In this document: piece by piece, positions 905 to 58,844 of the stretch
Numbering within the stretch: the stretch's first letter is position 1
Layout: each line of letters begins with the position of its first letter
NCBI GenBank assembly: GCA_016201505.1
Contig: JACQCQ010000009.1
Span: 1,991-65,990, forward strand
Direction: 5' to 3'
Length of the DNA stretch: 64,000 nt
Source of the DNA: Candidatus Sungiibacteriota bacterium
GTDB taxonomy: Bacteria > Patescibacteriota > Minisyncoccia > Sungbacterales > JACQCQ01
Position numbers and translations under genes: made by a program
Notes under the pieces: generated by a model
Told to the model about the DNA's origin: nothing
The model's database searches: none
Seen by the model: the letters and a program-made list of their open reading frames with translations, nothing else

Positions 905-1623
905 ATTTTGCCCTTAGCTACATACGCTATATCGTTTTGACGGGCAGCATTATTCTGGCGGCCGTTTTATTTTTGAGTCTGGTGTCCGGGTCTTCGCTGC
1001 CTGCGAGCAGCTATCTAAAACTCGATCGGCTGTACGGTCTGATCGCCGTTTCATTTCTATACCTTGCCTTACTCGCCACACCCCTCACCCAAGCCTGGCC
1101 AACTATCCCCTATCGTGTTGTTTACGTAAAAGCCCGCCGCGCCATCGGGGTCTCGGCTTTTTTCTTCGGTCTGCTCCACGCACTGATTTCGTTTTTTGTG
1201 TTACTCGGCGGCTATTCCGGCCTTTTCTTTTTAAATTCAACGTCTGCCTTGGCGATAGCGCTCGGATTCCTTCAGCTTTTAATTTTGGCGATCCTAGCTT
1301 CGACCTCATTTGATTCTATGGTGCGAAAACTCGGCACGCGCTGGAAGCAACTACACCGGCTCGTTTACATCGCCGCGTTTTCAATTTTAATTCACGCCAT
1401 CATTCTCGGCAGCGATATCGGTGATTGGTCGAATTCCATTTCTCAAGTCTTCTATATCGCCGTCATATTTCTGTTCGCTCTCGAGGATCTGCGCATATTT
1501 GGGTATCTAAAAAGAAAATTCCCGACATTTTCACGGCGACTGCTTCTGGCCCCCTGTATTCTGGTTTATTTGGTTTTCTCCATTTTGCTCTACCGGTTCA
1601 TGAGTTTCGGCCATGCGCATTAG
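901..1623 (+). CDS. Polytopic membrane protein, ferric-reductase-like transmembrane domain (MsrQ/YedZ-like)
   Basis: Six predicted TM helices with conserved His in helices (LLHALISF, LHRLVYIA, LIHAIILG). Overlaps the upstream stop by 4 nt. Confidence 0.4.
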   Translation: MNFALSYIRYIVLTGSIILAAVLFLSLVSGSSLPASSYLKLDRLYGLIAVSFLYLALLATPLTQAWPTIPYRVVYVKARRAIGVSAFFFGLLHALISFFVLLGGYSGLFFLNSTSALAIALGFLQLLILAILASTSFDSMVRKLGTRWKQLHRLVYIAAFSILIHAIILGSDIGDWSNSISQVFYIAVIFLFALEDLRIFGYLKRKFPTFSRRLLLAPCILVYLVFSILLYRFMSFGHAH

Positions 1624-2137
1624 AAAATGGGTTGAGGTTTTTTCCATTTTCTATTTGCTGTTTGCTATTTGCTTCTCCGCCTCCGCCCATGTTTTAAAGA
1701 GCGACGGCGTAATCGGCGCCGATCTTCACATTGAGCCGGATGACGATCCTTACGTCGGAGCTCCCGCGACGCTGTACCTCGATTTTAAGGACTTGAGCGG
1801 AAAGTTTTTGCTCGATCAATGCGACTGCCGCATGAGTATTTCTCTAGATAACAGCCAGCTGTATGAAGCGAGCCTCGTCTCTTTCACCGCCTCGTACACA
1901 TTTGCCAAACCCGCAAGCTATCTGCTCACGGTGAGCGGAACACCGAAACACATTCGCGCATTCCAGCCGTTTTCACTAGAATATCCAATACGAGTCGCCC
2001 GTATGGTCCCGCCAGCCGCGGCCTCGCAAAAGTCAAAAACTCATAATCATAATTCGATAATTCTGTACGGCATTTCGGCCATCATCACGTTCTTTATTTT
2101 GTACTACGAAAAAAATAAAGCGAAGTTGTTTTCGTAA
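1613..2137 (+). CDS. Hypothetical secreted protein with C-terminal membrane anchor
   Basis: N-terminal signal-like segment, C-terminal hydrophobic helix, and coding-like composition. Confidence 0.4.
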   Translation: MRIRKWVEVFSIFYLLFAICFSASAHVLKSDGVIGADLHIEPDDDPYVGAPATLYLDFKDLSGKFLLDQCDCRMSISLDNSQLYEASLVSFTASYTFAKPASYLLTVSGTPKHIRAFQPFSLEYPIRVARMVPPAAASQKSKTHNHNSIILYGISAIITFFILYYEKNKAKLFS

Positions 2138-12022: not shown

Positions 12023-12159
12023 CCCGTTAGAGGCGGACCTGCCTGCCGGCAGGCAGGATCGCGATCAAACGCGTTCGCCGCACAATAATTTTATAAATTG
12101 ACATATATCTAATATATAACTTTTGCGGTCGCGGCCTCTCACGGGATCCATTTTTTTAT

Positions 12160-12225
12160 TGTCTACCGTCTACCGACTACAGTCTACTGCCTAAACCTTT
12201 GCGGTAGTCAATGTCAGTAGCCCGT
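12160..12225. repeat. Leader-repeat family copy (gtctaccgtctaccgactacagtctactg...gcggtagtcaatgtcagtag)
   Basis: Same word composition (CTACAG/GACTAC/GGTAGTC) as the copies at 26432, 44505, 45410 and 46010. Confidence 0.5.
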
Positions 12226-16196: not shown

Positions 16197-16269
16197 GCTC
16201 CCATCGTCTAGAGGCCCAGGACCCGGGCTTTTCAAGCCCGTTACACCAGTTCGAATCTGGTTGGGAGCG
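16197..16269 (+). tRNA. tRNA-Glu (anticodon TTC); no encoded CCA
   Basis: Cloverleaf read by hand: acceptor gctccca/tgggagc, anticodon loop cttttcaa, T-loop ttcgaat. Confidence 0.85.
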
Positions 16270-16318
16270 CAAAGCAGAGTTAGTTTCTTAGTTCAATCTC
16301 CTGCGATAGAATAGTCTT

Positions 16319-16861
16319 ATGCCTGACCGACGCGTCATTGATTTAAAAAATTCAATTGCGGCAACCGAATCTGACGCCGAGGAAAATTCTGATTCTTTTT
16401 TTTCAATTCTGCATTCGTGGAGAGCTCCGGAGTATCACCACATTCCGAAAGAACGAAACTGGTATATTGCCGGCGCGATTATCGCCGGCAGTCTTCTCGT
16501 TTACTCCCTGATGACCGCAAATTATTTTTTTGCGATATTCACTCTGCTTGCGACATTTATCGTCTATACCTATTCCGTCCGCCTGCCTAAAGAAATGTAC
16601 GGCGCGATCACCTCGCACGGCGTGCAGATCAACAATCGATTGTATGGCTTTGAGGATTTAAATTCTTTCTGGATTTTTTATGAACCCGGTGGTATAAAAG
16701 AGCTTAGCCTTGAATCAAAAAAAGCCGTTATGCCGTATATTCGCCTGCCGCTGGGCGATGCCGAGCCGGTAAAAATTCGCGAAATTTTGGTCCAATACGT
16801 ACCCGAGGTGCGTCACGAAGAATCTCTTGCCGAGACTCTTTCAAGGTTTATAGGATTTTAA
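16319..16861 (+). CDS. Hypothetical membrane protein
   Basis: Two central TM helices; no recognised motifs. Confidence 0.4.
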   Translation: MPDRRVIDLKNSIAATESDAEENSDSFFSILHSWRAPEYHHIPKERNWYIAGAIIAGSLLVYSLMTANYFFAIFTLLATFIVYTYSVRLPKEMYGAITSHGVQINNRLYGFEDLNSFWIFYEPGGIKELSLESKKAVMPYIRLPLGDAEPVKIREILVQYVPEVRHEESLAETLSRFIGF

Positions 16862-16888
16862 TTCAGGCAAGTGCGCGACAAGCGCCCT

Positions 16889-16963
16889 GCGCTCGTCGTT
16901 CAACGGATAGGACACAAGCTTGCGGAGCTTGTAATAGGGGTTCGATTCCTCTCGAGCGCACCA
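16889..16963 (+). tRNA. tRNA-like gene, apparent anticodon GCG (Arg), with encoded 3' CCA (atypical for this genome)
   Basis: Acceptor gcgctcg/cgagcgc, D-loop aacggata, anticodon stem caagc/gcttg with loop ttGCGga, T-loop ttcgatt, then CCA. The other tRNAs here lack CCA. Sits at the edge of a degraded mobile region. Confidence 0.5.
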
Positions 16964-19406: not shown

Positions 19407-21584
19407 TTGAGGTTTAATTTTCTCGCGGGGTATACTTTTTATATGTTGACAGCGGAAACGCCAATCGAAAAATTGCCGAAGGTAATTCCGGCACTCGCTA
19501 AACGGCTGCATCACCTGGGCATTAAAACCGTTCGCGACCTCTTATTTCATTTTCCCGCCCGCTATGATGATTTTACAAATGTAAAATCCATCGGCGATTT
19601 GACAATCGGCGAAATTGCGACCATTTCAGGCCGCATTAAAAAAATTTCATCAACCCGCGCCTGGCGCCGCCGTATGTCCATTACGGAGGCGATTGTCGAA
19701 GATGATTTAGATTCGATACGCGTCATTTGGTTTAATCAGCCCTACCTCGTCAAAACCTTGCCGGTTGGTTCGCGAGTGAGTCTGGCGGGAAAATTAACCA
19801 CATCCAAGCGCGGCGAATATTTTGCCAACCCAGCATATGAAAAAATCGGAATGTCAGACGGCCTGCGGCATACCGGCGGATGGGTGCCCATTTATCCCGA
19901 GACGACTGGGCTTACCTCGCGCTGGATTCGGTTTCTGATGCGTGAAGTCGCCCCCGTTATAAAAAAAATTCCCGATCCCTTGCCGTCGGCCTTGCTTAAA
20001 AAAAGCACCTTACTTCCGCTTGAGCGCGCGCTTAGTAAAATCCATTTTCCTGAATCAAAAGACGAGTACGAAGAAGCTCGCAAGCGCTTCGCCTTCGAGG
20101 ATATTTTATTGATTCAGCTGCGCGTGTTGATGTCCAAAAAACAACTGGAAGAAAAAAAAGCGCCGCCGATTCCTTTAGGCCTCGAAGAAATTAAAAAGTT
20201 TATCGCCTCTCTCCCGTTCTCCTTAACCGATGGCCAACGCCGGGCCGCCTGGGACATCATGCGGGACACGGCAAAATCGGTGCCCATGAACCGCCTGCTG
20301 GAAGGCGATGTCGGATCGGGAAAAACCGTTGTGGCCGCGCTCACCTCGTTTAATGCCATCAGGTCCGGCTACCAGGTGGCCTATCTCGCGCCAACCGAAA
20401 TCCTGGCCATCCAGCATTTTAATACCTTAAGGCACTGGCTCTCTCCGTTTGGCGTTTACGTGGGTCTCCTGACAGCGGCGCATAAAAAATTTATTTCAGA
20501 TTACGGCGAGAGAGACCGAGTAAGCATCAGGAGCATGACCGAGGCGGGCGAAATTCCTATGCTGATCGGAACCCAGGCGGTGATCCAAGACGGCGTCAAA
20601 TTTAAAAACTTGGGTCTCGTGATTGTTGACGAACAGCACCGCTTCGGGGTCGCACAACGCGCCAAGCTGCTTCGGCAAAAGCAAACAGGCAATAGCCAAG
20701 AGGACTATTCCCCATCCCTCATCCCCCATTTTCTCTCCATGACGGCAACGCCCATCCCGCGAACTCTCGCGCTTACCATTTACGGCGATCTCGATGTTTC
20801 AATTTTAAATCAAGTCCCTCAAGGACGAAAGCCGATTGTGACCAAAATTGTGCCGGAAGAGAAAAGAAGCGCCTGCTATCAATTCATCCGAGACGAGGTG
20901 CATCGCGGCCGCCAAGTTTTTGTTATTTGTCCCAGAATTGAATTAAACGAGGAAATGGGAAATGGGAAATGGGAAATGGGAAATGTTTTGCGAGAAGAGG
21001 TGAAAGCCGTCAAAACCGAGTATGAAAAATTATCAAAACAAATTTTCCCTGACTTAAAAGTCGCCATGCTCCACGGCAAAATGAAATCAAAAGAGAAAGA
21101 AAATGTTATGCGCGATTTTAAAGAGGGAAAATCGGATGTCTTGATTTCAACTTCAGTGATTGAAGTTGGTGTCGATGTGCCGAATGCCACGATTATGTTA
21201 ATTGACGGAGCGGAAAAATTCGGGCTGGCGCAAATTCATCAGTTCCGCGGCCGGGTGGGCAGAGCCTCGCATCAGTCGTATTGTTTTTTAATGACCGGCT
21301 CAAGGGCCGCAGCAGAATCACAACGCTTAAAAGCCTTGGTTACTGCCAAAAATGGATTTGAACTGGCCGAAAAAGATCTCGCCATCCGCGGCCCCGGAGA
21401 TTTTTTGGGCACGCGCCAATCCGGCATCCCGCCCTTTGCTTATAAAAGTTTTAATGATCTGGAACTGGTTCAATCATCTCGCGATGCGGCGCGGGAGATT
21501 ATCGAGAAAGATCCGAAACTGGAGAGGCACGTCGCGCTGCAGAAAAATCTGGTGAAATTTGAAGAGACCGTGCACTTTGAATAA
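19407..21584 (+). CDS. recG: ATP-dependent DNA helicase RecG
   Basis: TDGQRRA, GDVGSGKT (Walker A), DEQHRFGV (DEQH), helicase C motifs (QFRGRVGR). Possible later start at 19443. Confidence 0.85.
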   Translation: MRFNFLAGYTFYMLTAETPIEKLPKVIPALAKRLHHLGIKTVRDLLFHFPARYDDFTNVKSIGDLTIGEIATISGRIKKISSTRAWRRRMSITEAIVEDDLDSIRVIWFNQPYLVKTLPVGSRVSLAGKLTTSKRGEYFANPAYEKIGMSDGLRHTGGWVPIYPETTGLTSRWIRFLMREVAPVIKKIPDPLPSALLKKSTLLPLERALSKIHFPESKDEYEEARKRFAFEDILLIQLRVLMSKKQLEEKKAPPIPLGLEEIKKFIASLPFSLTDGQRRAAWDIMRDTAKSVPMNRLLEGDVGSGKTVVAALTSFNAIRSGYQVAYLAPTEILAIQHFNTLRHWLSPFGVYVGLLTAAHKKFISDYGERDRVSIRSMTEAGEIPMLIGTQAVIQDGVKFKNLGLVIVDEQHRFGVAQRAKLLRQKQTGNSQEDYSPSLIPHFLSMTATPIPRTLALTIYGDLDVSILNQVPQGRKPIVTKIVPEEKRSACYQFIRDEVHRGRQVFVICPRIELNEEMGNGKWEMGNVLREEVKAVKTEYEKLSKQIFPDLKVAMLHGKMKSKEKENVMRDFKEGKSDVLISTSVIEVGVDVPNATIMLIDGAEKFGLAQIHQFRGRVGRASHQSYCFLMTGSRAAAESQRLKALVTAKNGFELAEKDLAIRGPGDFLGTRQSGIPPFAYKSFNDLELVQSSRDAAREIIEKDPKLERHVALQKNLVKFEETVHFE
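20951..20978 (+). repeat. (GGAAATG)x4 heptanucleotide tandem repeat inside recG
   Basis: ggaaatgggaaatgggaaatgggaaatg encodes ..EEMGNGKWEMGN.. in a loop of the helicase C-domain. Confidence 0.8.
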
Positions 21585-23188: not shown

Positions 23189-23260
23189 TGCGCGCGCTAG
23201 GATTCGAACCTAGGACCCACTGTGTATAAGACAGTTGCTCTACCGCTGAGCTACGCGCGC
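23189..23260 (-). tRNA. tRNA with anticodon TAT (tRNA-Ile UAU), no encoded CCA
   Basis: RC reads gcgcgcgtagctcagcggtagagca-actgt-cTTATac-acagt-gggtc-ctaggttcgaatcctag-cgcgcgc-a, a regular cloverleaf. Confidence 0.6.
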
Positions 23261-23352
23261 CAATCAAGAATCAAGAATGATGAATTATGGATACTATAAA
23301 GCCAGCGGGCCGTCTACCCATGATGCTTGATTCTGTATCCTCGATTCTTTTC

Positions 23353-25176: not shown

Positions 25177-25234
25177 TTTTATTTTTAATCCACCGCTCCC
25201 CTTTCCCCATTTCCCATTCTCTATTCCCTATTTC

Positions 25235-26425
25235 CTATTCTGCGGTTGCCTCAAGACGAGACGCCGTCGTTTCATCTACGGGGGCAGCTGCCTCCGCTGC
25301 TTTTGGCGCGAGAAAGCCCTCAAGCGCCAGCGAAAGCCGATGTTCCGGGATATCAATCGAGACGATTTTGAAGTCGTAGGTTTTGCCAAGCTCCAAGACT
25401 TCGCGCATTTTGGTGCGTGTCCCGAATTCGGAGATGTGGGCCAGTCCCTGGATCGTCTCGTCAATCTGGACAAATGCGCCGTAGGGATTAAATTTGGTCA
25501 CTTTGCCTGAAATAATTTCACCCTTTTTATACTTCTCACCGGCGGCAATCCAAGGGTCAGGTGTTAGGGCTTTCAATGATAACGAAATTTTATCGCCCTC
25601 GATATCAATAATTTTAGCCTGCTTTTTCTCGCCGACTTTCAGCACCGCTTTCGGGTCTTCAATCAGCTGCCAGTCAATTTCCGAGATATGAATCAGACCC
25701 TCAAGCCCGTCGTCAAATTTCATGAAGGCGCCGAAGTTAACCACACCGGTAATTTCACCCTCGACCGTGTCGCCTTTGGCATATTTTGCAAGTTTCTCTT
25801 TCATTTCAGCCGAATCACTATCACGTTCGGAGAAAATCAGTTTATTTTCATACGGATTTACATCCAAAATTTTCACTTTCAACTCTTGGTTCATAAATTT
25901 CTGCAGTTCGGCAAGGATGCGCTCTTTGTCGCCGTTTTCGACTCTCGGGTAGTGCTTTAAGGCAAGCTGTGAGACGGGCAAAAATCCGCGCACGCCGTGA
26001 AGCTCTAAAATCAGTCCGCCGCGGTTAGCTTCTTTCACCGGAAGTGATAAAACTTCGCCCGCTTGCATCTTGTCTTTTAAGTCACGCCAGGACTTTTCGC
26101 GCCCGGCTTCTTTTAAGGAAAGTTCAACGTAGCCCTCGTCATTATCCAGTTCGACGACTTTCGCCGTAACCAGGCTGTCGGGCTCGATATTCTTGATGAT
26201 GTCTTGGGCTTCATAATATTCGCGGCCGTAGATAATGCCCGTGCCGCGAACGCCAAGATCGATAAAGAGTTTGGCACCTTTTTTCTCGATGGCCGTGCCC
26301 TCGACAATCTCGCCGACTTTCGGCACGTTTAAAAAGTCACCGCGTGACTTGAGCATATTCTCCATCGGATGACGGATGGCGCTCGCCACCGCCGTCTTCC
26401 CATCTTCGGCTGTTTCGTCGTTCAT
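25235..26425 (-). CDS. rpsA: 30S ribosomal protein S1 (short four-S1-domain form)
   Basis: Repeated S1-domain pattern (GxVxGxVxxIxxFGAFV...) four times. Confidence 0.8.
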   Translation of the reverse strand: MNDETAEDGKTAVASAIRHPMENMLKSRGDFLNVPKVGEIVEGTAIEKKGAKLFIDLGVRGTGIIYGREYYEAQDIIKNIEPDSLVTAKVVELDNDEGYVELSLKEAGREKSWRDLKDKMQAGEVLSLPVKEANRGGLILELHGVRGFLPVSQLALKHYPRVENGDKERILAELQKFMNQELKVKILDVNPYENKLIFSERDSDSAEMKEKLAKYAKGDTVEGEITGVVNFGAFMKFDDGLEGLIHISEIDWQLIEDPKAVLKVGEKKQAKIIDIEGDKISLSLKALTPDPWIAAGEKYKKGEIISGKVTKFNPYGAFVQIDETIQGLAHISEFGTRTKMREVLELGKTYDFKIVSIDIPEHRLSLALEGFLAPKAAEAAAPVDETTASRLEATAE

Positions 26426-39644: not shown

Positions 39645-39726
39645 GCCTCTGTGGCGGAACTGGAATACGCGCGCGGCTTAGAACCGCGTGGGGAAACCCT
39701 TACAGGTTCAAATCCTGTCAGAGGCA
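39645..39726 (+). tRNA. tRNA-Leu (anticodon TAG), embedded in an extended hairpin
   Basis: ggcggaactggaatacgcgc D-arm typical of tRNA-Leu, anticodon loop cTTAGaa, long variable arm, T-loop ttcaaat. Flanks ccccgtaccaat and attggtacgggg extend the acceptor stem by 12 bp. Confidence 0.85.
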
Positions 39727-39749
39727 TTGGTACGGGGCGCGTACGGCCT

Positions 39750-39797
39750 GTAACCATATCCCGAAGGTCTTGAGGGTTCGACTCCCTCTCTCGACAC
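39750..39797 (+). other. Orphan tRNA 3'-half-like fragment (T-arm gagggttcgactccctc plus acceptor-3' tctcgaca)
   Basis: Canonical T-arm and acceptor strand with no matching 5' half nearby. Confidence 0.35.
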
Positions 39798-39853
39798 AAA
39801 CTAAAGTGCCATTGGCTATTTGCGAGTTGCGGTTGGCTTAGTAAACTAAAAAT

Positions 39854-40315
39854 ATGGCAGACGAAAAAATATTTCCCAAATCAGAAAACGAAGTTTTCTC
39901 GCGTCACGAGGCGCGCAATCGCGCGATTGCCAAAAAGATCGCCGATTTGAAGTCAGAAAAATTCACGCGGCTGGATCGTGTGGCGTTATGGGTCAATCGC
40001 GCTATCGGCTCCTTCCGTTTTTTTATACTGCTGGCGCTGTGGACTGGCGGCTGGCTTTTATGGAACGCTTTCGCGCCGCCAGAATTTCGTTTTGATCCGT
40101 ATCCGGCATTTGTGCTTTGGCTTTTTATTTCCAATATGATTCAGCTGTTGTTCCTGCCGCTTTTGATGGTCGGCCAGGATTTGCAGGGGCGGCACGCCGA
40201 GCTCCGGGCTGAAATCGATTTTGAAATCAATCGGAGAGCCGAAGAAGAACTGCATGAAGTCTTGCGCCGGCTTGAACTGCAGCAAAGAGAAATTAAGCAG
40301 ATTCTCAAACAATAA
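39854..40315 (+). CDS. DUF1003-family membrane protein
   Basis: FDPYPAFVLWLFISNMIQLLFLPLLMVGQ block recalled as DUF1003; coiled-coil C-terminus. Confidence 0.55.
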   Translation: MADEKIFPKSENEVFSRHEARNRAIAKKIADLKSEKFTRLDRVALWVNRAIGSFRFFILLALWTGGWLLWNAFAPPEFRFDPYPAFVLWLFISNMIQLLFLPLLMVGQDLQGRHAELRAEIDFEINRRAEEELHEVLRRLELQQREIKQILKQ

Positions 40316-40378
40316 TCGAGTTGCGAAAGAAAGAACTTCGCGATACTATTTGTCAGGCATTAAAAATTATGAAATAGT

Positions 40379-40450
40379 GCCGGAGTAGCTCATCGGTAGA
40401 GCAGCACCATGGTAGGGTGTTGGCAGCGGGTTCAATTCCCGCCTCCGGCT
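40379..40450 (+). tRNA. tRNA-Thr (anticodon GGT)
   Basis: Acceptor gccggag/ctccggc, anticodon loop atGGTag, T-loop ttcaatt. Confidence 0.85.
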
Positions 40451-40495
40451 CCGTAGATTAGAAATTAAGCGATAGGAATTAGAAATTTAGTTGAT

Positions 40496-40657
40496 ATGCC
40501 CCAAGATAATCTTATTAGATTTCAGTGTTCACAATGTAAGCGCTATAACTATTGGGCGCATAAAAATGTTCGCAAAGTCGAACGCAAATTAGAGTTCAAA
40601 AAATTTTGTAAGTGGTGCCGGAAACACACGAAGCATACGCAGGCGAGGAAAACTTAA
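40496..40657 (+). CDS. rpmG: 50S ribosomal protein L33 (zinc-ribbon form); 53 aa, below the ORF-track cutoff
   Basis: MPQDNLIRFQCSQCKRYNYWAHKNVRKVERKLEFKKFCKWCRKHTKHTQARKT with CxxC...CxxC. Followed by the hairpin cttaatcc-ttaa-ggattaag. Confidence 0.7.
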   Translation: MPQDNLIRFQCSQCKRYNYWAHKNVRKVERKLEFKKFCKWCRKHTKHTQARKT

Positions 40658-40708
40658 TCCTTAAGGATTAAGTTTTGCAAATAGCCTGCGGCTGATAGTA
40701 TGTAGCTA

Positions 40709-41062
40709 ATGTTTCGGTTTGAAAATTTGGAGATTTGGAATTTTGCGATCGGATTCGCAAAATCAATCTATGGAGTTACTGAGAAGTTCCCGCAAATTGA
40801 ACAATTCACTCTTGGTGACCAATTGAGACGTGCATCGGTCTCGGTATCGGCTAATATTGCTGAAGGCAGTGGAAGTTCGACCAATAAAGATTTCCAAAAT
40901 TTTTTGTCCATTGCCGCCAAATCTTTATTTGAAGTTGTCAGTTTATTGAAAATTGCTGAGCAAAATGGCTATATGAGTGAATCAGAGTATAACGATACAT
41001 ATCAGACAGCCGAAAACCTTGCGAAGAAAATCTACGCTTTCAGGAACGCTATCAGCAATTAG
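40709..41062 (+). CDS. Four-helix-bundle protein (the family often encoded in 23S rRNA intervening sequences)
   Basis: FENLEIW..A, SANIAEG and LSIAAKSLFEV motifs typical of the TIGR02436-like family. Confidence 0.7.
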   Translation: MFRFENLEIWNFAIGFAKSIYGVTEKFPQIEQFTLGDQLRRASVSVSANIAEGSGSSTNKDFQNFLSIAAKSLFEVVSLLKIAEQNGYMSESEYNDTYQTAENLAKKIYAFRNAISN

Positions 41063-41085
41063 CTATAAGCCATTTGCATAAGCAT

Positions 41086-41156
41086 GGGGAATTGGTGAAG
41101 TGGTATCACAAGGGCCTCCAAATCCCTTGTCGGGGGTTCGATTCCCTCATTCCCCG
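41086..41156 (+). tRNA. tRNA-Trp (anticodon CCA)
   Basis: Anticodon loop ctCCAaa, acceptor ggggaat/attcccc, T-loop ttcgatt. Confidence 0.8.
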
Positions 41157-45129: not shown

Positions 45130-45409
45130 TTTCGTCCCCATGCGGGGCGGCGCGTAACGCGCCGCCCCGCTCTTCATTTTCGCCCGATTGTTGACAGGCG
45201 GTTATCGCCTTCCTATACTTCTCATGCAATCGCTTCAGAGACAGCAGGCAGGCTAGGTAATAGAAAATAGGCAATGGGGAATAGCGGTAACTGCGTACCC
45301 ATTGCCTGTTCCCCAGTCCCTATTCCCTAGCCGTAAGTCCCGCCGAGAGGCATATTCTCTTCCCTTCTTAGGGAATCTCTGTGGCCCTTGGGGTCATTTT
45401 ATTGTAAAA

Positions 45410-45477
45410 GTCTACAGTCTACTGGCTACAGACTACGGCGCATTGAAGCTGTAGTCGGTAGACGGTAGTCGGTAGCC
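45410..45477 (+). repeat. Leader-repeat family copy immediately upstream of rplJ (~90% identical to 46010-46077)
   Basis: tctacagtctactggctacagactacggcgcattgaagctgtagtcggtagacggtagtcggtagcc. Confidence 0.6.
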
Positions 45478-45483
45478 AAAGCA

Positions 45484-46005
45484 GTGTTAACCAAAGTCGA
45501 AAAAGGAAAAATTGTGGAGGAGTTAAAAGAAAAGATTGCCAAACAACGTGTGGCGATTTTCTCCAACTTCCATGGCTTGTCGGTAACGAAACAGCAAGAA
45601 CTGCGGCGCAGCCTTAAAAAAGAAAATGCCGAATACAAGGTGGCGAAAAAAACGCTGATCAGCCGGGCCTTTGAATCCGCTAAAATTCCCTTTGTGCATA
45701 AAGATTTTAAGGGAGAACTGTCCGTCATTTTTGGATACGGCGATGAGGCGAGTCCGGCGAAGTCGCTTTTTAAATTTGGCAGAAAAAATCCTGATGCCAT
45801 CTCCATCGTAGGCGGCATTTTGGGTTCACGCGCGCTTTCCAAAGATGAAGTCGTTTCGCTCGCAAAATTGCCGTCGCGAGAGGAACTCTTGGGCCAAGTG
45901 GCCCGTGCAATTTCCGCTCCGATCCGGGGGTTCCTGAACGTACTAAACGGTAATCAGCGAAAGCTCGTTCTTGCACTTTCGGAAATTGCCAGAAAGAAAT
46001 CATAA
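45484..46005 (+). CDS. rplJ: 50S ribosomal protein L10
   Basis: L10 N-terminal pattern (KVEKGKIVEELKEKIAKQRVAIFSNFHGLSV); GTG start. Confidence 0.85.
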   Translation: MLTKVEKGKIVEELKEKIAKQRVAIFSNFHGLSVTKQQELRRSLKKENAEYKVAKKTLISRAFESAKIPFVHKDFKGELSVIFGYGDEASPAKSLFKFGRKNPDAISIVGGILGSRALSKDEVVSLAKLPSREELLGQVARAISAPIRGFLNVLNGNQRKLVLALSEIARKKS

Positions 46006-46009
46006 AATA

Positions 46010-46077
46010 GTTTACAGTCTACTGGCTACAGACTACGGCATATTGAAGCGGTAGTCGGCGGACGGTAGTCAGTAGTC
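46010..46077 (+). repeat. Leader-repeat family copy immediately upstream of rplL
   Basis: tttacagtctactggctacagactacggcatattgaagcggtagtcggcggacggtagtcagtagtc. Confidence 0.6.
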
Positions 46078-46085
46078 ATAAATCA

Positions 46086-46988: not shown

Positions 46989-47645
46989 TTGGCATATAGT
47001 GAAGATGCTATGGAACTTGTCTTAGAAAAACTTTTCGAGTCGAAGGCAAAAGTCAGAATTTTGCGCTTATTTTTAAGGAATCCGGCCAGTCATTTTTCGC
47101 TCGATCAAGTCTCGCGTCTGGTGGGATTGAAAGAAGAAGAAACGGCAAAAGAAATTTCAAAATTTTTGCAGCTTGGCATTTTAAAATGGCGCACGACGCA
47201 AGTCGTCGTTTCGGAACTTTCCGGCAAAGGCAAAATGAAAAAATTGCGCATGCGCCAAAAAACGGTCAGAGTTTTTATCGCCGATGAGAACTTTTATTTT
47301 TTCAAGGAACTGCAGGCCTTAATTCTGCGCCAGGTGCCGGAGTCGCGTCATCGGCTGGTTTCAAAAATCAAAAAACTGGGCCGCGTGAAGCTGGCCATCG
47401 CGACCGGCGCTTTCGTCAATAATGATTCGGCGCGGGTTGATCTTTTAATCGTGGGTGACTCTATCAATCGCCGCAGGCTCGAGAACATGCTGCATACCTG
47501 GGAGGCCAACGCCGGCAAAGAACTGACTTATGCCCTGATGACGACTGAAGAGTTTAAATATCGCGTGGATATGTTTGACCGGTTTACCCGCGACATTCTT
47601 GAAACTTCGCATGATAAGTTGATCAATGCGCTGAATGTGAGTTAG
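46989..47645 (+). CDS. Hypothetical protein (possible wHTH N-terminus)
   Basis: Coding-like composition; no confident motif. Confidence 0.45.
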   Translation: MAYSEDAMELVLEKLFESKAKVRILRLFLRNPASHFSLDQVSRLVGLKEEETAKEISKFLQLGILKWRTTQVVVSELSGKGKMKKLRMRQKTVRVFIADENFYFFKELQALILRQVPESRHRLVSKIKKLGRVKLAIATGAFVNNDSARVDLLIVGDSINRRRLENMLHTWEANAGKELTYALMTTEEFKYRVDMFDRFTRDILETSHDKLINALNVS

Positions 47646-47761
47646 GAAATGGGAAATTGGAAATAGTGAATAGACGCTTGAACCAAAAAGTCGCCTCGAC
47701 TTCCGCCAGCCGGCGGATCGCGGACGATTTTTTGCTACTATCACTTCGTGACAGATCATCT

Positions 47762-47851: not shown

Positions 47852-47923
47852 GGGTGATTAGCTCAGTGGCAGAGCGTTGCATTCACATTGCAAAGGCCAC
47901 AGGTTCGATACCTGTATCACCCA
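47852..47923 (+). tRNA. tRNA-Val (anticodon CAC)
   Basis: gggtgattagctcagtggcagagcg-ttgca-ttCACat-tgcaa-aggcc-acaggttcgatacctgt-atcaccc-a. Confidence 0.8.
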
Positions 47924-47948
47924 CTCAAATAAATCTAACGGGACAAGT

Positions 47949-47983
47949 TGCGAAGGCCGCTGGTTCGATCCCAGCAGCGTCCA
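47949..47983 (+). other. 3' half of the split tRNA (anticodon stem 3' strand, variable loop, T-arm, acceptor 3' strand)
   Basis: tgcga-aggcc-gctggttcgatcccagc-agcgtcc-a. Confidence 0.4.
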
Positions 47984-48065
47984 TCGCTGGAAACACTCTG
48001 GCAAAACGCCGAAGAGACGAAATCAAAAAGAATGAATTGAAATTAGTCTCGTCTTAGACCTCATA

Positions 48066-48098
48066 CCGATATTGTACTATAGGGTAATATAGGTATAT
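48066..48098. repeat. Third copy of the attgtactataggg... motif
   Basis: cataccgatattgtactatagggtaatataggtat matches the RC of 38824-38851 at 22 of 23 positions. Confidence 0.5.
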
Positions 48099-48196
48099 TT
48101 CTATCCGCGCTCCAATTTCTGCCAACTGGCGGATCGCGAATCGATTCCGACTAAAAAAGAACGGCCCGCATGAACTTCATGGTTCATGCGGGTCTA

Positions 48197-48430
48197 TTAG
48201 GTCCCCGCTGCTTCTGCAAAAATCCAGACCTCGTCCTCCGAGCGCAGATCTTTCGGAAGCCGCGCCGGTATCCGGCCGCGATGGATAAAGTCGCACATCA
48301 GCCGATTGCCTTCGGCCCAGTTTGCTCCCAGCCCAGAGTGGTGGTACGGACAGAGCGCCTCCTCACCCTCCTCACCCTCCTCACTTCTCGTCGCGGTTAT
48401 TTCCGCGCCGCAGTAGCTACAGCGTGGCAT
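48197..48430 (-). CDS. Hypothetical zinc-ribbon protein (GC-rich islet)
   Basis: SD TAGGAGGT upstream. CxxC...CPYHH. Contains an internal 9-bp tandem repeat (cctcaccct) x2.5 encoding EEGEEGEE. Confidence 0.4.
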   Translation of the reverse strand: MPRCSYCGAEITATRSEEGEEGEEALCPYHHSGLGANWAEGNRLMCDFIHRGRIPARLPKDLRSEDEVWIFAEAAGT

Positions 48431-48593
48431 AGGAAGGACCTCCTATCTTTTTTGTATTCTTCAATCTAAATCAGGTCAAGCTCGCGGGTAGAGGAAAACT
48501 TTTATAGTTGTTCATTTTGTCTCATAAGATTCTATAGGACATTATATAAAATCTAAAGGACATCAGAGACAGTCTCATAGATGTCCTTTAGAT

Positions 48594-48610
48594 GTAACAC
48601 GTAAAACTTT
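48594..48610. repeat. Left 17-bp inverted repeat GTAACACGTAAAACTTT abutting the homing-endonuclease stop codon
   Basis: Perfect reverse complement of 49028-49044. Confidence 0.8.
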
Positions 48611-49027: not shown

Positions 49028-49044
49028 AAAGTTTTACGTGTTAC
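49028..49044. repeat. Right 17-bp inverted repeat AAAGTTTTACGTGTTAC abutting the homing-endonuclease start codon
   Basis: Perfect reverse complement of 48594-48610. Confidence 0.8.
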
Positions 49045-49091
49045 ATTGAAAGTGTGTACGGGTACTACAATTATACAAGTTTCACAAAATA

Positions 49092-49481: not shown

Positions 49482-49522
49482 ATCCAGATTAGGCTAGATG
49501 GTTTTGATTAAAATTTAGAAAT

Positions 49523-49585
49523 GACCCGCCATAGCTCGGCTCGGCTGAATGGATTTCGCCCGCCGAAGCCGAGCTATGGCGAGGC
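49523..49585 (+). other. Long imperfect hairpin (18-bp stem) preceding tRNA-Pro
   Basis: cgccatagctcggctcggc ... gccgaagccgagctatggcg. Confidence 0.5.
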
Positions 49586-49590
49586 GAAGG

Positions 49591-54966: not shown

Positions 54967-56502
54967 TTAGCGCGCGTATTCTATGACGCGGGTTTCCCGA
55001 ATAACGTTGACTTTGATTTCGCCGGGGTATTTGAGTTCTGACTCAACACGGCCGGCAATTTTTTGGGCGAGGTCGCGTGCCTCAAAATCGCTAACTTTTT
55101 CGGGCGTAACAAAGATACGTATCTCGCGGCCGGCCTGAATGGCGTATGATTTTTCCACGCCCTCAAATGAATTGGCGATGGCCTCAAGATCTTGCAGTCG
55201 TTTTAAATAATTCTCAACCGAGTCTCTGCGCGCCCCGGGGCGTCCGGCGGAAATCACATCAGCTACTTGGACCAGGATCGATTCCAGCGTTTCGTAGGGG
55301 TACTCTTCGTGATGCGATTGCATGGCCTGGATGATGTGCGGATCGGCGTTGAACTTTTGTAAAATGCGCCGCCCGATTTCAACGTGCGTGCCCTGCACTT
55401 CATGGTCGACAGCCTTTCCAATGTCATGAAGCAGGGCGCCTTTCTTGGCGACCACCACATCACCGCCCAATTCTTCGGCTAGCATGCCGGCCACATGCGC
55501 CATCTCAATTGAGTGGACCAGGACGTTTTGGCCGTATGAGGTGCGGAATTTAAGCCTGCCAAGGAGCGAAATGAGCCGCGGGTCGAGGTCAAAGATACCA
55601 ACTTCAAAGGCGGCCGTATCACCCGCGGCTTTAATCTGTTTTTCGATTTCCTGCCGCGCTTTATCCACGGCTTCTTCGATGCGGGCTGGCTGGATGCGGC
55701 CATCACTAATCAGGACTTCGAGCGCATTTTTGGCAATATGGCGGCGCACCGGATCAAAGGCCGAGATAACGATGGCTCCCGGCGTATCGTCAACAATAAT
55801 TTCAACCCCGGCCGCGCGCTCGAGCGCGCGGATGTTGCGACCCTCCCGCCCAATGATCTTGCCCTTAATTTCATCATTCGGAATCTGAACGGTGGTAGTT
55901 GTTACTTCCGAAACAGTCGGAGTCGATACCCGTTGAATAATCGTGGCGAGTATTTGTTTGGCGCGGCGCTCCAATTCATCCAGTCCCGTGGTTTCCAACT
56001 TGCGGATTCGCTGCATCAGGCTCTCACTGTGGTCTTTTTCAATTTTTTTGTTTAATTCTTCAAGCGCCACATCTTGCGAGAGTCCGGCGACGCGTTCCAA
56101 TTCCTTGCCAACTTTAGTTTTTGTTTCCTCAATTTCGGTCTTTATACTTTTTACCTTCTCAACATTTTTTTCGAGATCCTTTTCGCGCTCGTCAATTTCG
56201 AGCATCTTTCGATCGAGTAACGATTCACGGTTTTCGAGTCGGTCCTGGAGACGCTTAATTTCCTGCTCGCGATCTTTTTCTTCTTTTTTGGCTTCTTCTA
56301 AAATTTGAACCGCATTAGCTTTGGCTTCGATGAGTATTTCTTTGGCTTCGGTCTTCGCGTCTTCGATTAATTTTTGTGTGCGCTGTTCGAGTGAATTGAT
56401 GCGCTGCTTTGAAATCAACTGGCGGAGAATGTAGCCGAGACCCGCGCCCACCGCGATTAAAAGCACCGCACCGACGGATAACGTCAGGGTGATTGATTGC
56501 AT
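54967..56502 (-). CDS. rny: Ribonuclease Y
   Basis: N-terminal TM, long coiled coil, KH domain (IGREGRNIRALE), HD domain (LLHDIGK). Confidence 0.9.
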   Translation of the reverse strand: MQSITLTLSVGAVLLIAVGAGLGYILRQLISKQRINSLEQRTQKLIEDAKTEAKEILIEAKANAVQILEEAKKEEKDREQEIKRLQDRLENRESLLDRKMLEIDEREKDLEKNVEKVKSIKTEIEETKTKVGKELERVAGLSQDVALEELNKKIEKDHSESLMQRIRKLETTGLDELERRAKQILATIIQRVSTPTVSEVTTTTVQIPNDEIKGKIIGREGRNIRALERAAGVEIIVDDTPGAIVISAFDPVRRHIAKNALEVLISDGRIQPARIEEAVDKARQEIEKQIKAAGDTAAFEVGIFDLDPRLISLLGRLKFRTSYGQNVLVHSIEMAHVAGMLAEELGGDVVVAKKGALLHDIGKAVDHEVQGTHVEIGRRILQKFNADPHIIQAMQSHHEEYPYETLESILVQVADVISAGRPGARRDSVENYLKRLQDLEAIANSFEGVEKSYAIQAGREIRIFVTPEKVSDFEARDLAQKIAGRVESELKYPGEIKVNVIRETRVIEYAR

Positions 56503-57239: not shown

Positions 57240-58844
57240 ATGAAAGCCTATAAACCCGTCGTACTCATCGTCATGGATGGATTCGGCGTTTCCTTGGAAG
57301 AAAAAGGCAATCCCGTCGCGCTCGCCAAAAAACCGACGCTGGATTTATTTGACGCCAATTTTCCCATGACGACACTGCAGGCTTCAGGCGTCGCCGTCGG
57401 GCTGCCCTGGGGCGAGGCGGGAAACTCGGAGGTCGGCCATTTAACCATGGGCACCGGCCGCATCAACTATCATCACCTGCCGCGGATTATCTACTCGATT
57501 CGTGACGGCAGTTTTTTTGAAAATCCGGCCTTTCTGCACGCCGCCGAGCACGTTAAAAAAAATAATTCAAAACTGCATATCATTGGGCTTGTTTCATCCG
57601 GCTCGGTCCACAGCTACATCGATCATCTGTATGCACTGTTAAAATTTGTTGAACTGCAGGGTCTTGCGCAGGCATTTTTGCACGTTATTACCGATGGCAA
57701 AGATTCTCCGCCGCAGGAAGGCGTTAAATTTTTAGCGCAACTTGAAGAAAGAATGATTAAAGAATTTCCGCAGACGAAAATCGCCTCAGTTGTCGGCCGA
57801 TTTTTTGCCATGGACCGCGATGAAAAATGGGATCGGATTGAGAAAGCTTATCAGTTGTGGACCGAAGCCAAAGGCAGTCCGATAACGAATATATCCGAGT
57901 ATGTATCGAGCGAATACCAAAACGGGCGCAGTGACGAATTTGTTGAACCCGGCTATGTCGCGCCAAATAATGCTCCCTTGGCTACGATCCACGACGGCGA
58001 CGCAGCCATTATTTTTAACTTCCGTGAGGATTCAGTCAGAGAAATTTCGCATGCCCTTATTGACCAGGTTTTTGATCGCTTCCCGCGAACGCAGGTCGCC
58101 GATTTATTTTTGGCGACGATGACGATGTATGAAGATTCACTCGCCGCCGAAGCGGCGTTTCCGCCGCTTCAGGTCAGTTATCCGCTCGCCCGCGTCATTT
58201 CGGACGCCGGCCTGCGGCAACTCCATATTGCCGAAACGGAAAAATACGCGCATGTAACCTATTTTTTCAATGGCGGGCGTGAAAAACCGTTTCCCAGCGA
58301 AGAACGCATACTCGTCTCCTCGATTTCGACCGCCCATTTTGATGAAGTACCCGAGATGAAAGCGGCCGATATTACAGCCAAAGTTATTGCCGAGCTCCCG
58401 CGGCATGATTTTGTCTTGGTTAATTTTGCTAACGCCGATGTGGTGGGCCATTCCGGCAATCAAGCAGCGGCCATCAAGGCAGTTGAGTCGGTTGATCGCT
58501 GTATCGGCGAAATTTATGAGGCGGTCGCGCGTGAGGGCGGCGTTTTAGTGGTCACCGGAGACCACGGCAACGTCGAGGCCAAACGCAACCTGCTGACGGG
58601 CGAGCGGCTGACCGAGCACTCATTAAATCCCGTACCGTTCTATTTAGTCGGGGCAGACTTTCGTGTTTCAGTGGCCCGCTCTCGCGATGAAGTGATCAAA
58701 CAGAAGAAAGAAACCGGCGGCATTTTAACCGATGTGGCGCCGACCATCATTGAGCTGATGGGATTAAAAAAGCCGCTTGAGATGACGGGAAGCTCGTTGC
58801 TACCCATGCTGATCTCACAGCACTTTGTTCACCCCGTTAGTTGA
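57240..58844 (+). CDS. gpmI: 2,3-bisphosphoglycerate-independent phosphoglycerate mutase
   Basis: PVVLIVMDGFG N-terminus, SEVGHL, metal-binding His/Asp blocks (VVTGDHGN). Confidence 0.9.
   Translation: MKAYKPVVLIVMDGFGVSLEEKGNPVALAKKPTLDLFDANFPMTTLQASGVAVGLPWGEAGNSEVGHLTMGTGRINYHHLPRIIYSIRDGSFFENPAFLHAAEHVKKNNSKLHIIGLVSSGSVHSYIDHLYALLKFVELQGLAQAFLHVITDGKDSPPQEGVKFLAQLEERMIKEFPQTKIASVVGRFFAMDRDEKWDRIEKAYQLWTEAKGSPITNISEYVSSEYQNGRSDEFVEPGYVAPNNAPLATIHDGDAAIIFNFREDSVREISHALIDQVFDRFPRTQVADLFLATMTMYEDSLAAEAAFPPLQVSYPLARVISDAGLRQLHIAETEKYAHVTYFFNGGREKPFPSEERILVSSISTAHFDEVPEMKAADITAKVIAELPRHDFVLVNFANADVVGHSGNQAAAIKAVESVDRCIGEIYEAVAREGGVLVVTGDHGNVEAKRNLLTGERLTEHSLNPVPFYLVGADFRVSVARSRDEVIKQKKETGGILTDVAPTIIELMGLKKPLEMTGSSLLPMLISQHFVHPVS

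What the first reader, a model, noticed from the sequence alone, without database searches (positions are those of the whole stretch)
20951..20978. Heptanucleotide tandem repeat (GGAAATG)x4 inside recG: a candidate slipped-strand phase-variation switch in a DNA-repair helicase
A perfect 28-nt tract of four GGAAATG units lies within the recG coding sequence, translated as EEMGNGKWEMGN in a permissive loop of the helicase C-domain. Because the unit is 7 nt, gain or loss of one unit by slippage would frameshift RecG and remove the C-terminal helicase motifs. That would reversibly switch a recombination/repair function. Related GGAAATGG/GGGAATAG words recur in intergenic regions (25180-25240, 45240-45320, 47640-47670), which suggests the motif was recruited from a dispersed element.
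Basis: seen in the sequence. Interest (0 to 1): 0.65.

Follow-up and report, generated by a model that had tools for sequence, protein, structure and literature searches.

The report
Young heptamer microsatellite inside recG loop
A perfect five-copy 7-base repeat really does sit inside the recG DNA-repair helicase gene of an uncultured Patescibacteria bacterium. It looks like one more of the many 7-base microsatellites these genomes produce, tolerated in a floppy surface loop, and nothing shows it is an evolved on/off switch.

Summary
The tract is real but was miscounted. It is (GGAAATG)x5, 35 nt, at 20951-20985, perfect and far beyond chance. It lies in an intact RecG gene of a Candidatus Sungbacteria MAG and encodes EEMGNGKWEMGN. 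This peptide sits in a low-confidence coil straight after helicase motif IV. Solved RecGs have nothing at that site, and Patescibacteria RecGs carry 0 to about 60 unrelated residues there.

Only 2, 5 or 8 units keep the frame. Any other count stops translation 5-13 codons later.

The switch interpretation has no support:
- Only the 5-unit allele exists in public data.
- The tract is short, lies 70% into a housekeeping gene, and is absent from relatives.
- Period-7 arrays are about 20-fold over-represented across 644 kb of Patescibacteria DNA, mostly between genes.
- Seven other recG genes among the 80 relatives (plus two doubtful calls) carry heptamer arrays, as do four further close relatives. 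All lie in variable loops and all are in frame.
- One such array, (GCGACAA)n, is orthologous across five related species.

Best reading: a young slippage-born microsatellite fixed in frame in a permissive loop. It is a mutational hotspot, not a demonstrated contingency locus. It is also the window's only canonical G-quadruplex motif.

The parts
20951..20985 (+). Perfect heptanucleotide microsatellite (GGAAATG)x5, 35 nt. Encodes E503-N514 (EEMGNGKWEMGN) of RecG.
   Evidence: It is the only frameshift-capable SSR of note in the window apart from two (GC)5 tracts.
19443..21584 (+). recG coding sequence, 713 aa from the ATG at 19443. Alternative starts are TTG 19407 and 19446 (the start used by NCBI, giving 712 aa).
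   Evidence: 100% identical to MBI3627542.1, Candidatus Sungbacteria MAG; 1GM5, E = 6e-143.
20943..20993 (+). Loop B coding segment (L501-R517), between the motif IV strand (QVFVICPRIE) and the following helix. It is a hypervariable insertion site.
   Evidence: a 13-residue insertion relative to T. maritima and E. coli RecG; 0 to about 60 residues in 79 relatives; mean column occupancy 0.22; pLDDT below 50 at residues 500-509 and coil at 495-510 (P0001 numbering).
20957..20980 (+). Canonical G-quadruplex motif GGGAAATGGGAAATGGGAAATGGG on the sense strand. Five units is the smallest in-frame count that gives four G3 runs.
   Evidence: the only G3N1-7 x4 motif in 64 kb on either strand (shuffle mean 0.63). 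ViennaRNA with gquad gives -8.4 kcal/mol. In-silico prediction only.
20673..20726 (+). Loop A coding segment (between helicase motifs II and III) with weak period-7 signal. It may be a decayed counterpart of the (GCGACAA)n array that relatives carry at this site.
   Evidence: The window reaches only 9 of 14 self-matches at lag 7, which is inconclusive. Relatives L001 and L082-L085 reach 11-14 of 14.
25199..25241 (-). Intergenic degenerate array of the same GGRAATRG family, including GGAAATGG.
   Evidence: No RNA fold (z = -0.9).
45254..45327 (.). Intergenic inverted pair of GGRAATRG-type heptamer arrays forming a long hairpin.
   Evidence: -40 kcal/mol, z = -5.0.
47645..47673 (+). Array GGAAATG GGAAATT GGAAATA GTGAATAG, starting at the stop codon of ORF 46989..47645.

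Best explanation
The tract is a young heptanucleotide microsatellite, a 'long SSR'. It arose by replication slippage inside a structurally permissive, disordered surface loop of RecG, the loop straight after helicase motif IV. It is carried in an in-frame configuration (5 units, i.e. 3n+2), where it simply encodes a 12-residue filler, EEMGNGKWEMGN.

It belongs to a genome-wide, Patescibacteria-wide population of period-7 arrays. Most of these lie between genes. Occasionally one lands in a loop of a conserved protein and survives there, becoming a fixed lineage-specific insertion that slowly decays.

Mechanistically the tract is a local indel hotspot. Gain or loss of one or two units would truncate RecG at about residue 510-536 and remove motifs V and VI and the TRG motif. 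Such alleles are most likely deleterious by-products removed by selection, not an exploited ON/OFF state.

Shown here: the anatomy, the reading-frame arithmetic, the permissiveness of the loop, the lineage-wide excess of heptamers, and the in-frame persistence of arrays in other recG genes.

Inferred: the slippage origin, the youth of the tract (from its perfection), and the absence of adaptive switching.
For: Anatomy and frame.

Permissive loop:
- 13-residue insertion relative to 1GM5 and 9WM0.
- Loop length 0 to about 60 residues, with unrelated content, in 79 relatives.
- AF2 coil with pLDDT below 50.

Heptamer arrays are a general mutational product:
- In the window, 10 arrays at lag 7 against 0-4 at other lags (0-1 except lag 12, which has 4). 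Eight of the 10 are intergenic although about 85% of the window is coding (P = 1e-5).
- In 644 kb of Patescibacteria DNA, 54 arrays at lag 7 against 2.7 in shuffles and 2-11 at lags 4, 5, 8, 10 and 11. Thirty-two of the 54 lie in the 12% that is intergenic (P = 4e-16).

Other recG genes carry heptamer arrays in low-occupancy loops, always in frame: L001, L006, L011, L012, L043 and L056. The (GCGACAA)n array in loop A is orthologous in five species with 2-5 recognisable units. None of the recG genes examined is split at an SSR; the one apparent break, in L071, is a run of N.

The same loop B has taken up other repeats elsewhere: a 9-nt SSR in L033 and palindromic elements in L018, L049 and L052.

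No other allele is on record.

Literature: heptamers are the most abundant long SSR in most bacterial genomes, and polymerase slippage has been proposed as the cause (Mrazek et al. 2007, as summarised in PMC4692102 and PMC4679880).
Against: No read-level data could be examined, so minority alleles with 4 or 6 units cannot be excluded.

A perfect 5-unit tract is exactly what a currently active slippage site looks like. Its unit is the same as in two or three intergenic arrays of this genome, which chance does not readily explain and which hints at a sequence-specific process.

The organism was assembled from a single sample series, so the absence of other alleles in databases is weak evidence.

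The tract is the only canonical G4 motif in 64 kb, which could point to a function at the nucleic-acid level.
Confidence: 0.72

Rival explanations
1. Contingency locus. Slipped-strand mispairing of the heptamer tract reversibly switches RecG between full-length (2, 5 or 8 units) and truncated null forms. This would create subpopulations with altered recombination and repair, and the arrangement would be maintained by selection.
For: The unit length is not a multiple of 3, and the tract is perfect. All non-3n+2 counts truncate RecG 5-13 codons downstream. Heptamer tracts inside coding regions can drive phase variation, as in neuO (PMC13001214) and candidate H. influenzae loci (PMC2651432). The tract is the most slippage-prone frameshifting SSR in the window.
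Against: No length variant has been observed anywhere. The tract has only 5 units, against 13-53 in validated heptamer switches. It lies at 70% of the gene rather than near the 5' end (PMC3315296). RecG is a housekeeping repair gene, not a surface or restriction-modification gene. No other contingency-type SSRs occur in 64 kb. Relatives lack the tract. Comparable arrays in seven other recG genes among the 80 relatives, plus four further close relatives, are degenerate or fixed in frame. The genome-wide excess of heptamers explains the tract without invoking selection.
Confidence: 0.08
2. Origin by capture of a dispersed element. The tract was not born in place. It was copied or inserted from the genome's GGRAATRG intergenic array family by recombination, gene conversion or a mobile mini-element, and then tolerated in the loop.
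For: The same cyclic unit GGAAATG(G) occurs at 25207-25221 and 47645-47658. The family gives 20 matches against 2.0 expected. Sharing one unit class out of roughly a thousand possible heptamer classes is unlikely by chance (my own estimate). The same loop in L018, L049 and L052 has clearly taken up palindromic repeat elements.
Against: There are no flanking target duplications or element ends. The intergenic arrays are degenerate and heterogeneous, whereas the recG tract is perfect. The M-G encoded by the tract aligns with a conserved D-M-G (GAY ATG GGA) in relatives P0002, P0004 and P0007, which offers an in-situ proto-repeat. GGAAATGG as a single word is not over-represented outside the arrays.
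Confidence: 0.15
3. Function at the nucleic-acid level. The (GGGAAAT)n tract acts as a G-quadruplex in the sense DNA strand or the mRNA, or as a G_GGA_AAT slippery site. It would modulate recG replication, transcription or translation rather than act through unit-number change.
For: It is the only canonical G4 motif in 64 kb, and a three-tetrad G4 is predicted. G-rich heptamer arrays (GGGAATC, GGGGAYT) in Xanthomonas and Nostoc fold into G4s (PMC4692102). G_GGA_AAT in the zero frame formally fits the X_XXY_YYZ pattern (direct reading).
Against: This is a prediction only. Relatives do not conserve it. The -1 frame ends after about 13 codons with no alternative product. One G4 motif against 0.63 expected is not statistically remarkable once the repeat itself is given.
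Confidence: 0.04
4. Assembly or sequencing artefact that creates or miscounts the repeat.
For: Short tandem repeats can be miscounted by assemblers.
Against: The 35-nt tract is shorter than typical reads. Two independent assemblies agree base for base. The count keeps a 713-aa RecG in frame, with all motifs aligned to 1GM5.
Confidence: 0.01

Closest known systems
Long simple sequence repeats with 7-nt units in bacterial genomes (Mrazek et al. 2007, as summarised in PMC4692102 and PMC4679880). Includes cyanobacterial STRR heptamers and the G-rich GGGAATC / GGGGAYT arrays of Xanthomonas and Nostoc.
   Same: Head-to-tail 7-nt units. Period 7 is strongly over-represented relative to other periods. 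Arrays are mostly intergenic, sometimes arranged as inverted pairs that form hairpins. The unit is G-rich with G4 potential. The number and sequence of units vary between related genomes.
   Different: Here the host is a Patescibacteria (CPR) genome, for which I found no description of such arrays. This copy also lies inside a conserved coding sequence, which is unusual for units that are not multiples of three.
neuO of E. coli K1 prophage CUS-3: a coding-region heptanucleotide (AAGACTC)n phase-variation switch (PMC13001214).
   Same: A heptamer tandem repeat inside an ORF. The full-length product is made only for one residue class of unit number modulo 3. All three frames of the repeat are stop-free.
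   Different: neuO has 3-53 units (mode 20) at the 5' end of a capsule-modifying gene. About 66% of genomes are phase-OFF, and switching has been measured. Here there are 5 units at 70% of a housekeeping helicase gene, and only one allele is known.
Haemophilus influenzae heptanucleotide SSRs: hmw1A/hmw2A promoters, AACAACC in a TonB-dependent receptor gene, and AATTTTG x14 inside hmw1A (PMC2651432).
   Same: 7-nt units, and potential frameshifting when the tract is intragenic.
   Different: Those are host-adapted pathogen surface genes with long tracts and documented variation between strains.
Tandem repeats that create new disordered regions in proteins, such as Borg element repeats (PMC9879509).
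   Same: The repeat-encoded segment forms a low-confidence, disordered insertion in a protein.
   Different: Per the abstract, Borg tandem repeats create intrinsically disordered regions in proteins; whether their units are multiples of three was not checked here. Here the unit is 7 nt, so only every third copy number is viable.

Membership tests
SSR-mediated phase-variable (contingency) locus | A tandem repeat whose unit-number change alters the reading frame or the promoter spacing of a gene. | tested here: met
   7-nt unit inside the recG CDS. Only 2, 5 or 8 units give full length.
SSR-mediated phase-variable (contingency) locus | Observed repeat-number polymorphism (ON and OFF alleles) within or between populations. 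| tested here: inconclusive
   Only the 5-unit allele appears in the MAG and the Logan contig. The flank-anchored metagenome scan found nothing. Six modelled alleles are absent from about 15 billion proteins.
SSR-mediated phase-variable (contingency) locus | A tract long enough for high-frequency slippage, comparable with validated loci of the same unit size. | tested here: not met
   5 units here. neuO has 3-53 units, mode 20 (PMC13001214). hmw tracts have 13-38 units (PMC2651432).
SSR-mediated phase-variable (contingency) locus | Typical placement near the 5' end and typical gene class (surface, restriction-modification or host-interaction), within a genome that holds several such loci. | tested here: not met
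   The tract is at residues 503-514 of 713, in a housekeeping helicase. There are no homopolymer, tetra- or pentanucleotide SSRs in 64 kb. N-terminal bias is documented in PMC3315296.
Bacterial heptanucleotide long SSRs / STRR-like arrays | Head-to-tail 7-nt units, with genome-wide over-representation of period 7, mainly intergenic. | tested here: met
   54 observed against 2.7 expected, and 32 of 54 intergenic.
G-quadruplex-forming G-rich heptamer repeats (Rehm et al. 2015 class) | At least four G3 runs with short loops, and a demonstrated G4 fold. | tested here: inconclusive
   The motif is present and a G4 is predicted by ViennaRNA.
RecG (SF2 branched-DNA helicase) | N-terminal wedge/OB domain, two RecA-like helicase domains with motifs I-VI, and a C-terminal TRG region. 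| tested here: met
   NCBIfam equivalog NF008168, 812.8 bits against 718. Pfam RecG_wedge, DEAD, Helicase_C and RecG_dom3_C. Full-length alignment to 1GM5. AF2 model with pLDDT 81.
Programmed -1 ribosomal frameshift site | An in-frame X_XXY_YYZ slippery heptamer, plus a downstream stimulator, plus a meaningful -1 ORF. | tested here: not met
   G_GGA_AAT is in the zero frame, but the -1 frame terminates after about 13 codons. No downstream stimulator was looked for.

The most novel reading that the evidence does not exclude
The tract is a genuine contingency locus. Heptamer slippage, possibly promoted by G-quadruplex formation on the sense strand, would reversibly inactivate RecG in a fraction of cells of an ultra-small episymbiotic Patescibacteria bacterium, producing subpopulations with altered recombination or genome stability. 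This would be the first phase-variable DNA-repair helicase and the first contingency locus described in the candidate phyla radiation. More broadly, heptamer microsatellites would be an active engine for switching genes and for creating the lineage-specific loop insertions typical of CPR proteins.
Probability: 0.07. Interest if true: 0.7.

Novelty: new member of a known kind. Interest (0 to 1): 0.3.

Why it matters
Taken at face value the finding is modest. It is one more heptanucleotide microsatellite, which is the commonest class of long SSR in bacteria, caught inside a gene.

Two aspects give it some value.

First, it is a clean natural example of how a non-triplet microsatellite can be born in a conserved enzyme, be tolerated, and become a loop insertion. 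The same recG family shows older stages of this process, namely the orthologous, decaying (GCGACAA)n array in five species. This suggests heptamer slippage is a recurrent source of the lineage-specific insertions seen in Patescibacteria proteins.

Second, it marks a precise, cheaply testable site where population-level instability of a repair gene could be measured in an uncultured organism. If variation were found it would be a first for the CPR. If not, the tract is a neutral curiosity.

Tried and rejected
1. I first suspected a cyanobacterial STRR context, because of the many intergenic heptamers and about 50% GC. Rejected: every RecG relative is from Patescibacteria, and the exact protein is from a Candidatus Sungbacteria MAG.

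2. I searched for length variants with a flank-anchored gapped pattern in JGI metagenome contigs. No hits, not even the 5-unit form, so the source sample is not in that collection.

3. I looked for near relatives (66-100% identity) that would show the history of the tract. None exist among 5.8 billion clustered proteins.

4. I made exact look-ups of modelled 2-, 3-, 4-, 6-, 7- and 8-unit products. None is on record.

5. I looked for recG genes split at SSRs among the relatives. The only apparent frameshift (L071) is a run of N.

6. Look-ups of P0001 and P0004 contigs failed because there is no exact gene record.

7. The Rfam scan of the window found only nine tRNAs and nothing at the heptamer arrays.

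8. Programmed ribosomal frameshifting was considered and rejected, because there is no -1 ORF.

9. The primary Mrazek 2007 paper is not held in the library. It is cited second-hand.

10. The apparent second GGRAATRG-type array inside recG (20705-20719, minus strand) is a single hit against 2.0 expected for that pattern. It partly overlaps conserved PHFLSM codons, so it is not counted as evidence.
Full report
OBSERVATION

Reading the window directly and running Tandem Repeats Finder show a perfect heptanucleotide array starting at 20951. It has five units, (GGAAATG)x5, 35 nt, 20951-20985 (TRF: period 7, 5.0 copies, 100% matches, score 70). It is the only perfect array of at least 3 copies with period 7 in the 64 kb, and dinucleotide shuffles give about 0.1 arrays of even 2.5 copies. 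The double unit, allowing up to 2 mismatches, occurs 8 times against 0.93 expected. An independent Logan assembly of run SRR12113409 (L081, 3012 nt) is identical to the window and also has five units, so the tract is not an assembly artefact.

HOST GENE

The ORF 19443 (ATG; alternatives are TTG 19407 and 19446) to 21584 on the + strand is RecG:
- NCBIfam equivalog NF008168 scores 812.8 bits against a cutoff of 718.
- Pfam finds RecG_wedge, DEAD, Helicase_C and RecG_dom3_C.
- It aligns over its full length with T. maritima RecG 1GM5 (E = 6e-143) and E. coli RecG 9WM0.

The protein is 100% identical to MBI3627542.1 from a Candidatus Sungbacteria (Patescibacteria/CPR) MAG, on a contig of 140,836 nt. 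The next relatives are only 60-66% identical. The tract is read as E503 E M G N G K W E M G N514.

WHERE IN THE PROTEIN

Both solved RecGs have a gap of 13 residues exactly opposite MGNGKWEMGNVLR. The site follows the motif IV strand QVFVICPRIE and precedes the helix VKAVKTEYEKLSK.

In an alignment of 79 Patescibacteria RecGs this position holds anything from 0 to about 60 residues of unrelated sequence. Mean column occupancy is 0.22.

An AlphaFold2 model built from 60 homologues (mean pLDDT 81) gives coil at residues 495-510 with pLDDT below 50 at 500-509.

Within the closest clade the loop is about as long as in the window (16-17 residues) but has different content: IAGHDEKVHTPRELYA or ATSDMGQETRQ. 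The tract has therefore replaced or overwritten older loop sequence rather than added to a bare site. The M-G of the tract aligns with a D-M-G (GAY ATG GGA) shared by three relatives. This is a plausible proto-repeat for in-situ expansion.

FRAME ARITHMETIC

I modelled 1-9 units. Counts of 2, 5 and 8 units give full-length proteins of 706, 713 and 720 aa. Every other count terminates 5-13 codons after the tract, giving 510-536 aa and removing about 200 C-terminal residues, including helicase motifs V and VI and the TRG region. All three frames of the unit are stop-free, which is a precondition for its presence in a gene.

THE GENOMIC BACKGROUND CHANGES THE INTERPRETATION

Period-7 arrays are a conspicuous property of this genome. 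With a simple self-match scan (21-nt window, at least 16 matches) the window has 10 arrays at lag 7, against 0-1 at every other lag from 4 to 11 and 4 at lag 12. Eight of the 10 are intergenic although about 85% of the window is coding (P = 1e-5).

The arrays fall into unit families:
- GGRAATRG: the recG tract, 25199-25241, 45254-45327 and 47645-47673 (20 matches against 2.0 expected).
- GTCTACC: 12152, 45406, 46006.
- GCCAATA: 1638, 43899.

Some arrays are arranged as inverted pairs that fold into long hairpins (z about -5).

The same excess holds across 80 related Patescibacteria recG loci. In 644 kb there are 54 arrays at lag 7, against 2.7 in shuffles and 2-11 at lags 4, 5, 8, 10 and 11. 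Thirty-two of the 54 lie in the 12% of DNA that is intergenic (P = 4e-16).

This matches what is already known for bacteria in general. Heptanucleotides are the most abundant class of long SSRs, mostly intergenic, and polymerase slippage has been proposed as the cause (Mrazek et al. 2007, as summarised in PMC4692102 and PMC4679880). G-rich GGGAATC and GGGGAYT arrays, including inverted pairs, are described for Xanthomonas and Nostoc (PMC4692102). I found no paper describing this for Patescibacteria.

HEPTAMER ARRAYS IN OTHER recG GENES

Of the 80 relatives, L001, L006, L011, L012, L043 and L056 carry period-7 arrays inside recG. One search also lists L009 and L042, but the L009 array lies upstream of the region aligned to RecG and the L042 array is A/T-rich low complexity, so I do not count them. 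Each array lies in a low-occupancy loop, at window residues about 133-140, 349-355 or 407-427. These are the same loops that AF2 marks as low-confidence (138-142, 418-421).

In the loop between motifs II and III, five species of the window's own clade (L001, L082, L083, L084, L085) share an orthologous (GCGACAA)n array. It has 2-5 recognisable units in 7-nt register and encodes variants of QATSDKRQ. The L001 copy is still perfect for 3.7 units.

All these genes are intact. A tblastn screen found no recG split at an SSR, and the single apparent break, in L071, is a run of N.

Loop B has also absorbed other repeats in other lineages: a 9-nt SSR in L033 (QAGQAGQAG) and palindromic elements in L018, L049 and L052.

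Together this gives a life cycle. Arrays arise by slippage, survive only in permissive loops and only in frame, become fixed lineage-specific insertions, and then decay. The window's tract is the youngest stage, still perfect.

TESTS OF THE SWITCH HYPOTHESIS

Only the 5-unit allele is on record:
- The two assemblies agree.
- A flank-anchored gapped search of JGI metagenome contigs found nothing.
- No truncated or length-variant relative appears among the best hits in 5.8 billion protein clusters.
- Exact look-ups of the modelled 2-, 3-, 4-, 6-, 7- and 8-unit products among about 15 billion proteins all failed.

The indirect criteria are mostly unfavourable:
- The tract has 5 units. neuO has 3-53 units (mode 20), with 66% of genomes phase-OFF and measured switching (PMC13001214). 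The H. influenzae hmw tracts have 13-38 units (PMC2651432).
- It lies 70% into the gene, whereas contingency SSRs are biased to the N-terminus (PMC3315296).
- The gene is housekeeping.
- The window has no other contingency-type SSRs, only two (GC)5 tracts.

I therefore rate an adaptive switch at about 0.08. The best explanation is a tolerated, young, slippage-born microsatellite, at about 0.72. The tract remains a real indel hotspot, and RecG-null cells must arise at some rate.

ORIGIN

Two readings remain open. In-situ growth from the ancestral GAY-ATG-GGA proto-repeat is favoured by the alignment. Capture from the dispersed GGRAATRG family is favoured by the shared unit. Sharing one cyclic heptamer class out of roughly a thousand is unlikely by chance; that figure is my own estimate. 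GGAAATGG as a single word is not over-represented outside the arrays. I rate capture at about 0.15. A genome-specific bias of slippage toward G-rich GGRAAT-type units could reconcile the two.

EXTRA PROPERTIES

The tract contains GGGAAATGGGAAATGGGAAATGGG (20957-20980). This is the only canonical G3N1-7 x4 quadruplex motif on either strand of the window (shuffle mean 0.63). ViennaRNA with G-quadruplex energies predicts a three-tetrad G4 at -8.4 kcal/mol. Five units is the smallest in-frame number that yields four G-runs. In the zero frame, G_GGA_AAT formally fits the X_XXY_YYZ slippery pattern, but the -1 frame ends after about 13 codons, so programmed frameshifting is rejected. Both properties are in-silico curiosities. 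G4 formation could raise replication slippage, but nothing here tests that.

VERDICT

It is a new member of a known kind, namely bacterial heptanucleotide long SSRs and potential SSR frameshift sites. It lies in an unusual place (inside a conserved helicase gene) and in an unusual host (CPR). Interest is about 0.3.

The more interesting by-product is the recurrent, sometimes orthologous, presence of heptamer arrays in variable loops of Patescibacteria RecG. This suggests non-triplet microsatellites are a source of lineage-specific protein insertions in these genomes.

Noticed in passing
window 45406-45478 and 46006-46078: A 73-nt element (88% identical copies, 600 nt apart) brackets ORF 45484..46005. 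Each copy is an inverted pair of GTCTACC-type heptamer arrays that folds into a long hairpin (-36 and -27 kcal/mol, z about -5). A related single arm lies at 12152-12193. It looks like a REP/MITE-like hairpin element built from heptamers.
   Followed up: partly
L001 4225-4266; L082, L083, L084, L085 (recG loop between helicase motifs II and III): An orthologous (GCGACAA)n heptamer array encoding QATSDKRQ-like peptides is shared by five Sungbacteria-like species. It has 2-5 recognisable units, is always in frame, is still perfect for 3.7 units in L001, and is expanded with a second block in L083. A non-triplet microsatellite has therefore been conserved across genera inside a helicase gene.
   Followed up: partly
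window + 79 Patescibacteria loci (644 kb): Period-7 tandem arrays are about 20-fold over-represented (54 against 2.7 in shuffles) and are concentrated in intergenic DNA (32 of 54 in 12% of the sequence). Twenty-one still lie inside coding sequence, against 4 each for periods 5 and 8. I found no description of this for Patescibacteria in the literature library.
   Followed up: partly
L018, L049, L052, L033 (recG loop B, same site as the finding): Other lineages have different repeats inserted in frame at the same loop. L018 has a GC-rich palindrome. L049 and L052 have palindromic elements translating to IPA.AGIQ...RFHGND-type peptides, which from memory resemble translated REP-like repeats. L033 has a 9-nt SSR giving QAGQAGQAG.
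   Followed up: no
window 1638-1676: A degenerate (ATTTGCT)n heptamer array lies within the first 20 codons of ORF 1613..2137. It encodes the hydrophobic core of what looks like a signal peptide (VFSIFYLLFAICFSASA). This is a second case of a heptamer array in a permissive coding segment.
   Followed up: no
window 56797-57025: A 107-nt unit is repeated 2.1 times at 99% identity, in the long gap between the listed ORFs 54967..56502 and 57240..58844. The unit begins and ends with inverted termini (CCCGTTAGAGAAT...ATTCTCTAACGGG). There is no Rfam match.
   Followed up: no
window 20957-20980: The recG tract is the only canonical G-quadruplex motif (G3N4 x4) on either strand of the 64-kb window. 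Five units is the smallest in-frame copy number that gives four G-runs. G_GGA_AAT is also formally a -1 slippery heptamer in the zero frame.
   Followed up: partly
window 48358-48384 and 51634-51651: Two other perfect short tandem repeats, (CCTCCTCAC)x3 and (CAACTT)x3. Both have units that are multiples of three. Their coding context was not examined.
   Followed up: no
window 16197-16960, 23189-23260, 39645-41156, 47852-50797: Nine tRNA genes are found by Rfam. Heptamer arrays abut some of them: 23258-23293 sits next to the tRNA at 23189-23260, and 47645-47673 lies about 180 nt upstream of the tRNA at 47852.
   Followed up: no
L001 and L084, recG loop A downstream of the heptamer array: The octamer CATGTCGC recurs three times at irregular spacing within the same loop-coding DNA (SAMSHVAKPMSL / ALSHVASSMSQ). 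This suggests further small-repeat activity in this loop.
   Followed up: no
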